Of a DNA stretch of 64,000 nucleotides, positions 5,540 through 7,081 are shown one piece after another. Positions within the stretch are counted from its first letter, which is position 1. Each line of letters begins with the position of its first letter. Below the pieces are notes generated by a model, which worked only from the letters and a program-made list of their open reading frames with translations, searched no databases and had not been told where the DNA came from. Both the position numbers and the translations under genes were made by a program. The stretch lies in assembly GCF_055900595.2 (NCBI RefSeq), contig NZ_CM148325.1; one strand, written 5' to 3'.

Positions 5540-7081
<1,542 letters not shown>

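What the first reader, a model, noticed from the sequence alone, without database searches (positions are those of the whole stretch)
5615..5640. 16S V1 hairpin carries paired compensatory substitutions relative to the canonical E. coli rrsB sequence
The window reads GGAAGCAGCTTGCTGCTTTGC where the reference I recall reads GGAAGAAGCTTGCTTCTTTGC. The two changes (A to C and T to G) are complementary, so the helix is preserved. This is typical intragenomic rRNA operon heterogeneity and matters for amplicon-based typing.
Basis: partly seen in the sequence, partly recalled or inferred. Interest (0 to 1): 0.25.

Follow-up and report, generated by a model that had tools for sequence, protein, structure and literature searches.

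The report
Common 16S V1 hairpin allele
The two paired base changes in the 16S rRNA V1 hairpin are real and keep the helix intact, but they are a common, long-known E. coli allele (probably the older state, with the K-12 rrsB version the newer one), so this is ordinary.

Summary
Observation confirmed. The window holds the rrnD operon of an E. coli. Its 16S gene (5540-7081) differs from K-12 rrsB at only two of 1542 positions: A80>C (window 5619) and U89>G (5628). These two positions pair with each other in helix h6, the V1 'spur'.

It is not unusual:
- K-12 rrsC, rrsD and rrsG also carry C80:G89.
- The exact window hairpin occurs in 1,812 of about 5,426 complete E. coli genomes, at 1-7 copies each.
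- The same hairpin occurs in Citrobacter, Kosakonia, Cedecea, Siccibacter and Klebsiella indica. Every enterobacterial genus hit by the scan has C80:G89, so the window state is probably ancestral and rrsB's A80:U89 derived.
- The rrsB version is the published 'E. coli-specific' primer site ECA75F, which about 35% of E. coli are reported to lack.

This pair does vary between operons in many E. coli, K-12 included. But in the closest complete genome all seven copies carry C80:G89, and that lineage varies instead at the neighbouring pair 79:90 and at position 93. The allele is not rrnD-specific either.

Verdict: already known, low interest.

The parts
5540..7081 (+). 16S rRNA gene of the rrnD operon (rrsD)
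   Evidence: RF00177 at 1577.6 bits, model 1-1533. It is followed by tRNA-Ile, tRNA-Ala, 23S, 5S, tRNA-Thr and 5S. aroE/tsaC/yrdD/dprA lie upstream and yhdZYX downstream.
5612..5636 (+). Apical hairpin of helix h6 (16S positions 73-97), the core of variable region V1, known as the 'spur'
   Evidence: Predicted fold ((((((((((....))))))).))) at -10.4 kcal/mol. All 10 pairs are standard in 14 distinct alleles. h6 is described as the V1 spur in PMC10269663.
5619..5619 (+). C80, the 5' side of the flagged pair (A in K-12 rrsA/B/E/H)
5628..5628 (+). G89, the 3' side of the flagged pair (U in K-12 rrsA/B/E/H)
   Evidence: It pairs with position 80 in the fold.
5622..5625 (+). CUUG tetraloop (positions 83-86) closing the hairpin
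   Evidence: Unpaired loop in the fold. It is invariant in all alleles compared, but the search pattern fixed these bases.
5618..5618 (+). G79, the 5' side of neighbouring pair 79:90. This is the pair that actually varies between operons in the window's lineage.
   Evidence: G:C in the window and in 100117 rrsA/C/D/E, U:A in 100117 rrsB/G/H and in rrsD of three relatives, A:U in K-12 rrsC/D.
5629..5629 (+). C90, the 3' side of pair 79:90
5632..5632 (+). U93, forming a G76.U93 wobble (C93 gives G:C in K-12 rrsC/D/G and 100117 rrsB)

Best explanation
This is the rrnD 16S gene of an E. coli lineage that carries the C80:G89 form of the h6 (V1 'spur') hairpin.

The hairpin is a solvent-exposed stem. 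Selection there acts on base pairing rather than on base identity, so changes are found as complementary pairs.

C80:G89 with U93 is probably the ancestral enterobacterial state and sits at the centre of the E. coli allele set. The K-12 rrsB form (A80:U89) is a derived double transversion within Escherichia. Short-tract gene conversion between the seven rrn operons has since spread it, or erased it, in different strains. As a result individual E. coli genomes hold from 0 to 7 copies of each form.

In the window's own lineage the rrsB form appears to be absent from all seven operons. Operon-to-operon variation there sits at the neighbouring pair 79:90 and at position 93.

Shown here: the two differences, their pairing, the allele frequencies, and the state of all seven copies in a close proxy genome. 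Inferred: the direction of change, the role of gene conversion, and near-neutrality.
For: Sequence and pairing:
- The window 16S equals K-12 rrsB except at positions 80 and 89.
- 80 pairs with 89. The double change keeps the fold and the single changes do not.

Covariation:
- A cross-species scan left positions 79, 80, 89, 90 and 93 free. All 59 matches keep both pairs standard.
- Pair 80:89 shows five pair types and 79:90 shows four. All cells are paired, and 0 of 500 shuffles reach the observed score.

Direction of change:
- Every enterobacterial genus hit has C80:G89: Enterobacter, Siccibacter, Mixta, Salmonella arizonae, Citrobacter, Kosakonia, Klebsiella indica, Cedecea.
- Five of these genera carry the exact window hairpin.

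Frequency in 5,426 complete E. coli genomes (records with at least one exact copy):
- Window allele: 1,812.
- rrsB type: 3,435.
- rrsG type: 2,585.
- rrsC/D type: 3,580.
- The window allele occurs at 1-7 copies per genome, median 3.

Lineage:
- Strain 100117 has C80:G89 in 7 of 7 copies.
- It has the window hairpin in rrsA, C, D and E, and its rrsA, C and E are 100% identical to the window 16S.
- Z0117EC0005 has the same alleles as 100117 at rrnA and rrnB.

Movement between operons:
- rrsD of 2013C-4282, 2017-02-2CC and N96 carries the U79:A90 hairpin instead.
- N96 has the window hairpin once, at another operon.

Literature:
- ECA75F (the rrsB hairpin) is present in 65% of E. coli at 1-7 copies and absent from 35% (PMC13340235).
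- Point changes in E. coli rrs are propagated by conversions of short domains (Cilia et al. 1996, as quoted in PMC6002687).
- h6 is an exposed spur with little sequence conservation that accepts insertions and structure-preserving recoding (PMC10269663).
Against: - The other six rrs copies of the true source genome were not seen. The 7 of 7 result comes from a proxy that is 99.5-99.9% identical by region (lowest, 98.9%, beyond window 38.4 kb), and V1 alleles demonstrably move between operons among such relatives.
- The direction of change rests on a scan that could only retrieve hairpins with identical flanks. The scan was clearly not exhaustive: only two copies came back from the E. coli representative.
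- PMC13340235 reports the rrsB form in 89% of E. albertii strains, so A80:U89 is old within Escherichia or has been exchanged between species.
- C:G to A:U needs two transversions with no wobble intermediate. How the valley was crossed is not shown.
- Neutrality is assumed. PMC10269663 saw a slight penalty for a fully recoded h6 stem.
Confidence: 0.85

Rival explanations
1. One reading: the source genome itself is heterogeneous at pair 80:89, with rrnD carrying C:G while some other operons carry the rrsB-type A:U.
For: This is true of K-12. At least 29% of complete E. coli genomes hold both states. PMC13340235 reports 1-7 ECA75F copies per positive strain.
Against: The closest complete genome has C:G in all seven copies. 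A second close genome agrees at the two operons seen. All four relatives examined carry C80:G89 at rrsD. About 35-37% of E. coli lack the rrsB form entirely (PMC13340235).
Confidence: 0.1
2. The hairpin is simply the rrnD-specific allele, fixed at that operon across E. coli.
For: K-12 rrsD shares C80 and G89 with the window. Several genomes with a single copy of the window allele have it at an rrnD-like map position.
Against: K-12 rrsD differs from the window at 79, 90 and 93. Three close relatives have another hairpin at rrsD. The window hairpin is in rrsA, C, D and E of 100117. In N96 and O145:H28 RM12581 the single copy lies away from rrnD.
Confidence: 0.02
3. The V1 segment was imported by recombination from another enteric genus, rather than retained from the ancestor.
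For: An identical hairpin occurs in Citrobacter, Kosakonia, Cedecea, Siccibacter and Klebsiella indica. PMC6002687 reviews proposals that clustered, compensated rrs polymorphisms come from horizontally acquired segments.
Against: Outside the hairpin the window 16S is identical to K-12 rrsB/E, so no foreign tract is visible. The allele is in a third of E. coli genomes. Every other E. coli allele is one pair swap, or one G.U to G:C step, away from it or from one of its one-step neighbours, which fits retention.
Confidence: 0.05
4. The two differences are a sequencing or assembly artefact, for example a collapsed or chimeric rrn copy.
For: rrn repeats are a classic source of assembly chimeras.
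Against: The exact 51-nt sequence is found in 1,812 independent complete-genome records. It is also in rrsD of 100117. A paired artefact that restores a helix is very unlikely.
Confidence: 0.01
5. The alternative h6 alleles mark functionally specialised ribosomes, with different assembly, initiation or host adaptation.
For: PMC10269663 reports that variable-region changes, even single ones in V3-V4, alter how 16S rRNAs populate ribosome pools, and that a recoded h6 stem performed slightly below wild type. PMC13340235 speculates on host adaptation.
Against: No test of these natural h6 alleles exists in what I read. h6 is an exposed spur with little sequence conservation that accepts insertions and structure-preserving recoding (PMC10269663). 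Alleles are freely shuffled among operons and strains, as expected for near-neutral variants.
Confidence: 0.03

Closest known systems
E. coli K-12 rrsB / rrsE (16S rRNA, J01859-type reference)
   Same: Identical at 1540 of 1542 positions, with the same length, tetraloop and G76.U93 wobble.
   Different: Pair 80:89 is C:G in the window and A:U in rrsB/E.
E. coli K-12 rrsG V1 hairpin (GAAGCAGC...GCUGCUUC)
   Same: Same C80:G89 and G79:C90.
   Different: rrsG has C93 (G76:C93), whereas the window has U93 (a wobble). Elsewhere rrsG differs at 131, 183, 250, 253 and 273.
E. coli K-12 rrsD, the orthologous copy
   Same: Same operon and flanks, same C80:G89.
   Different: A79:U90 and C93 in K-12 rrsD, plus differences at 208, 250, 253 and 273: seven in all.
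ECA75F 'E. coli-specific' 16S primer/probe site (Sabat et al. 2000, re-evaluated in PMC13340235)
   Same: The same 25-nt stretch of V1 (positions 75-99).
   Different: The window has two mismatches to the 25-mer GGAAGAAGCTTGCTTCTTTGCTGAC. The closest genome has no matching copy among its seven rrs genes.
Concerted evolution of rrs by short-tract gene conversion (Cilia et al. 1996, via PMC6002687)
   Same: A mosaic distribution of a few V1 alleles over operons and strains, with compensated stem changes.
   Different: Nothing differs in kind. This is one more instance.

Membership tests
Bacterial SSU rRNA, helix h6 / V1 hairpin | Lies inside a full-length 16S rRNA gene at E. coli positions 73-97 | tested here: met
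   RF00177 at 1577.6 bits, model 1-1533. Ungapped 1542-nt correspondence with K-12 rrs genes.
Bacterial SSU rRNA, helix h6 / V1 hairpin | Forms a stem closed by a tetraloop (CUUG, 83-86), with pairs supported by covariation | tested here: met
   Fold. All 10 pairs are standard in 14 alleles, two pairs show changes on both sides, and 0 of 500 shuffles reach the score. The scan fixed the other eight pairs, so only 79:90, 80:89 and 76:93 are informative.
E. coli rrnD operon | Gene order 16S, tRNA-Ile(GAU), tRNA-Ala(UGC), 23S, 5S, tRNA-Thr(GGU), 5S | tested here: met
E. coli rrnD operon | Chromosomal flanks: aroE/tsaC/yrdD/dprA side upstream, yhdZYX/acrEF side downstream | tested here: met
Compensatory (covarying) base-pair substitution | The two changed positions pair with each other, and both states are Watson-Crick | tested here: met
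   80:89 is A:U in rrsB and C:G in the window.
Compensatory (covarying) base-pair substitution | Single-change intermediates weaken the helix | tested here: met
   In silico only: -8.0 kcal/mol in a shifted register and -6.4, against -10.4 and -8.2. Not tested in cells.
   The proxy genome 100117 has C:G in 7 of 7 copies. It is met in K-12, with 4 A:U and 3 C:G. The true source clone (GCA_050190815.1) could not be examined beyond rrnD.
Intragenomic rrs heterogeneity in V1 generally | Copies within one genome differ somewhere in the h6 hairpin | tested here: met
   100117 has three hairpins, differing at 79:90 and at 93.
Operon-specific (rrnD) allele | Orthologous rrsD copies share the hairpin and other operons lack it | tested here: not met
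   K-12 rrsD and the rrsD of three relatives differ from the window. The hairpin is also in rrsA, C and E of 100117.
ECA75F-positive E. coli | At least one exact copy of GGAAGAAGCTTGCTTCTTTGCTGAC | tested here: not met
   The window copy has two mismatches. None of the seven copies in 100117 matches. The other copies of the source genome were not seen.

The most novel reading that the evidence does not exclude
The natural h6 alleles (C:G or A:U at 80:89, and G:C, A:U or U:A at 79:90) are not neutral. They would tune 30S assembly or use, so that the mix of V1 alleles a strain keeps across its seven operons is selected, for example with host or lifestyle. The reported absence of the rrsB form from clinical Shigella would then be adaptive rather than historical.
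Probability: 0.03. Interest if true: 0.45.

Novelty: already known. Interest (0 to 1): 0.07.

Why it matters
It matters only in practice. The hairpin is the target of the widely used ECA75F 'E. coli-specific' primer/probe. The window's allele has two mismatches to it, and the closest complete genome has no matching copy at all, so strains of this lineage would probably score negative in such assays. Amplicons that include V1 also give several sequence variants per E. coli genome, and the same variant in several genera. V1 variants therefore cannot be read as strains or species. None of this is new. It has been described from 1996 onwards and was quantified again in 2026.

Tried and rejected
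1. My first 55-nt allele-specific queries (positions 66-120) were meant to hit only the exact allele. I miscounted the exact runs: the window and rrsB types cross-seed, and so do the rrsG and rrsC/D types. From those calls I used only the '>=99%' bands, and I repeated the window allele with a 51-nt query. still includes variants one or two mismatches away (539 records), so 8,444 places is an upper bound for the exact allele.

2. I tried to reach the other six rrn operons of the near-exact source clone GCA_050190815.1 by looking up flanking proteins taken from the proxy genome (purH, murI, yigZ). The clone was not among the places shown, so I stopped after three look-ups. The loci did give extra alleles from relatives.

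3. The genome-contig scan was clearly not exhaustive (two E. coli copies, no S. enterica subsp. enterica). It supports covariation and the presence of the allele in other genera, but gives no frequencies.

4. Sabat et al. 2000 (PMC91908) is not held in the library. The primer sequence is cited from PMC13340235. Cilia et al. 1996 was read only as quoted in PMC6002687.

5. Considered and rejected: assembly artefact, rrnD-specific allele, imported foreign tract (see rival explanations).

6. Tandem repeats in the window: none.

Full report
**What is at the coordinates**

The string GGAAGCAGCTTGCTGCTTTGC is at window 5614-5634. It lies in a full-length 16S rRNA gene at 5540-7081 on the + strand (RF00177, 1577.6 bits). 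The gene is followed by tRNA-Ile(GAU), tRNA-Ala(UGC), 23S, 5S, tRNA-Thr(GGU) and a second 5S. aroE, tsaC, yrdD and dprA lie upstream, and yhdZYX and acrEF lie downstream. This is the rrnD operon of E. coli, read in the opposite direction to the K-12 map.

**Checking the observation**

I fetched all seven rrs genes of K-12 MG1655 and compared them with the window gene, ungapped, over 1542 nt.
- The window 16S differs from rrsB and rrsE at only two positions in the whole gene: 80 (A>C, window 5619) and 89 (U>G, window 5628).
- In the predicted hairpin (positions 73-82 paired with 87-97, CUUG loop at 83-86, G94 bulged) these two positions pair with each other.
- The window form folds at -10.4 kcal/mol and the rrsB form at -8.2. 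The two single-change intermediates lose the native fold.
- The chance that the only two differences in 1542 nt fall on the two sides of one pair and restore a Watson-Crick pair is about 2e-4.

**It is not a departure from 'the' E. coli sequence**

K-12 itself has three V1 hairpins:

| K-12 copies | Hairpin |
|---|---|
| rrsA, B, E, H | GAAGAAGC..GCUUCUUU |
| rrsG | GAAGCAGC..GCUGCUUC |
| rrsC, D | GAAACAGC..GCUGUUUC |

C80:G89 is therefore already present in three of the seven K-12 copies, including the orthologous rrsD. The window hairpin as a whole (C80:G89 with G79:C90 and U93) matches none of the K-12 copies. It equals rrsG with U93, or rrsB with the 80:89 pair swapped.

**Population frequency**

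I ran short allele-specific searches against 5,426 complete E. coli genomes and counted the records holding at least one exact copy of each hairpin.

| Hairpin | Records with at least one exact copy |
|---|---|
| Window | 1,812 |
| rrsB type | 3,435 |
| rrsG type | 2,585 |
| rrsC/D type | 3,580 |

- The window hairpin, or a variant within one or two mismatches, occupies up to 8,444 of about 37,900 rrs copies. It occurs at 1 to 7 copies per genome, with a median of 3.
- The four counts sum to about 2.1 alleles per genome, so carrying several V1 alleles is normal.
- One strain, E2863, holds all four.
- By inclusion-exclusion, at least 1,589 genomes (29%) hold both A80:U89 and C80:G89 copies.

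**The source lineage**

No complete RefSeq E. coli genome is identical to the window.
- The best eight are 99.9% identical over window 1-5500 and 99.7% over 11100-36000.
- An NCBI draft, GCA_050190815.1, differs by 1 base in 23,105 and is effectively the source clone. I could retrieve only its rrnD side, without V1, and three look-ups for its other operons did not show it.
- I therefore located all seven rrs genes of strain 100117 (NZ_CM128596.1) by synteny.

Results for strain 100117:
- All seven copies carry C80:G89.
- rrsA, C, D and E carry the window hairpin. rrsA, C and E are 100% identical to the window 16S over 1542 nt, and rrsD differs by one base, at position 156.
- rrsG and rrsH carry GAAUCAGC..GCUGAUUU (U79:A90).
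- rrsB carries that hairpin with C93.
- A second close genome, Z0117EC0005, has the same alleles at rrnA and rrnB.

In this lineage the flagged pair does not vary between operons. The variation sits one pair further down, at 79:90, and at position 93.

**Not an rrnD-specific allele**

rrsD of three other close relatives (2013C-4282, 2017-02-2CC, N96) carries the U79:A90 hairpin, not the window hairpin. N96 has the window hairpin once, at a different operon. The same few hairpins therefore sit at different operons in closely related strains. This is the pattern expected from short-tract gene conversion among rrn operons, as Cilia et al. (1996) concluded for E. coli and Salmonella (quoted in PMC6002687). 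Here that is an inference from distribution, not a demonstrated event.

**Covariation and direction of change**

I scanned GTDB species representatives for the hairpin with positions 79, 80, 89, 90 and 93 left free. The scan gave 59 matches.
- In all 59, both 79:90 and 80:89 are standard pairs.
- Over the 14 distinct alleles, 80:89 takes five forms (C:G, U:A, A:U, G:C, G.U) and 79:90 takes four. All cells are paired, and 0 of 500 shuffles reach the observed covariation score.
- Every enterobacterial genus hit has C80:G89: Enterobacter, Siccibacter, Mixta, Salmonella arizonae, Citrobacter, Kosakonia, Klebsiella indica, Cedecea.
- Siccibacter, Kosakonia, Klebsiella indica, Citrobacter amalonaticus and Cedecea have the exact window hairpin.
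- Among the E. coli alleles, the window hairpin is the hub. The rrsB, rrsG and U79:A90 types are each one pair swap, or one G.U to G:C step, away from it. The rrsC/D type and the C93 form of the U79:A90 hairpin are one further step away.

The likely direction is that C80:G89 is ancestral and the rrsB form derived.

Caveats:
- The scan retrieves only hairpins with identical flanks and was not exhaustive.
- PMC13340235 reports the rrsB form in 89% of E. albertii strains, so it is old within Escherichia or has been exchanged between species.
- C:G to A:U needs two transversions with no wobble intermediate. A mismatch in one copy of seven would be buffered by the other six, which is a plausible but untested route.

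**What is already published**

- The rrsB hairpin is the 25-mer ECA75F (GGAAGAAGCTTGCTTCTTTGCTGAC), introduced by Sabat et al. (2000) as an E. coli-specific primer. The sequence is cited here from PMC13340235.
- Isobe et al. 2026 (PMC13340235) found ECA75F in 2,510 of 3,876 E. coli strains (65%), at 1 to 7 copies. It was absent from 35% of E. coli and from clinical Shigella. My independent count is 63%.
- Bose and Moore 2023 (PMC10269663) describe h6 as the centre of V1: a spur pointing away from the subunit body, with little sequence conservation. It is used by others to host affinity tags. They recoded it while keeping the structure, with at most a slight loss of performance.

**Verdict**

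The finding is an ordinary, well-documented polymorphism.
- The phrase 'typical intragenomic operon heterogeneity' fits E. coli in general, but by the best available proxy it does not fit this pair in this lineage.
- The comparison with rrsB makes an ancestral state look like a substitution.
- The practical point stands in a sharper form: this lineage probably lacks the ECA75F site in all copies, and V1 variants are shared across operons, strains and genera.

Noticed in passing
window 10653-10791 (repeat copies at 10633-10652 and 10772-10791): A 139-nt segment lies between the first 5S and tRNA-Thr of rrnD. It is absent from the closest genome, 100117, where the gap is 14 nt. It is flanked by a 20-nt direct repeat, AACTGCCAGGCATCAAATTA, which is the 5S 3' end plus trailer. 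Its second half is homologous to the K-12 rrnB T1-T2 spacer, and it lacks the T1 terminator hairpin. It is present in 574 of 5,426 E. coli genomes, at rrnD or after another 5S, and is unannotated in the records seen.
   Followed up: partly
window about 27,200-35,700: A sugar-utilisation cluster lies between yhdT and accC: sugar kinase, DeoR regulator, tagatose-bisphosphate-family aldolase, ABC transporter, a second kinase and an aldose 1-epimerase. Only 1,403 of 5,425 genomes cover at least 80% of window 11100-36000, so this looks like an accessory island.
   Followed up: no
window about 38,389-38,418 and onward: Against proxy 100117 the alignment breaks, with about 30 extra bases in the window between accB and acuI. 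Identity drops from 99.55% (window 10.8-38.4 kb) to 98.86% (38.4-57.4 kb), which suggests a recombination boundary between the lineages.
   Followed up: no
L081 (GCA_050190815.1, JBLEXQ010000001.1 4747928-4771032): An NCBI assembly differs from window 6315-29419 by 1 base in 23,105 and is effectively the source clone. It is not in the complete-genome collection searched.
   Followed up: partly
L049 (Nesterenkonia haasae, 500-nt contig) and L076 (Nocardioides sediminis, 545-nt contig): Two actinobacterial assemblies contain tiny contigs with an enterobacterial 16S 5' region. L076 has the E. coli rrsB-type hairpin and flank. This is most likely contamination in those assemblies.
   Followed up: no
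L018, L022, L029-L034, L036, L042, L046-L048, L051-L053, L058, L064, L066-L069, L075: Flavobacteriia (Winogradskyella, Bizionia and several MAGs) have an h6 hairpin with the same flanks, loop and length as E. coli. They differ only at pairs 79:90 and 80:89, mostly U:A/U:A. That is a striking similarity across phyla in a 'variable' region.
   Followed up: no
window 7412-7520: An Rfam StyR-44 match (124.9 bits) lies in the spacer just upstream of the 23S gene. The proxy record annotates nothing in the corresponding stretch.
   Followed up: no
NZ_CP010145.1 (E. coli D5) and 538 other records: The best match to the 51-nt window V1 query is 96-98% identical, and in strain D5 this holds for all seven copies. 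This indicates further V1 alleles one or two bases from the window allele, which I did not characterise.
   Followed up: no
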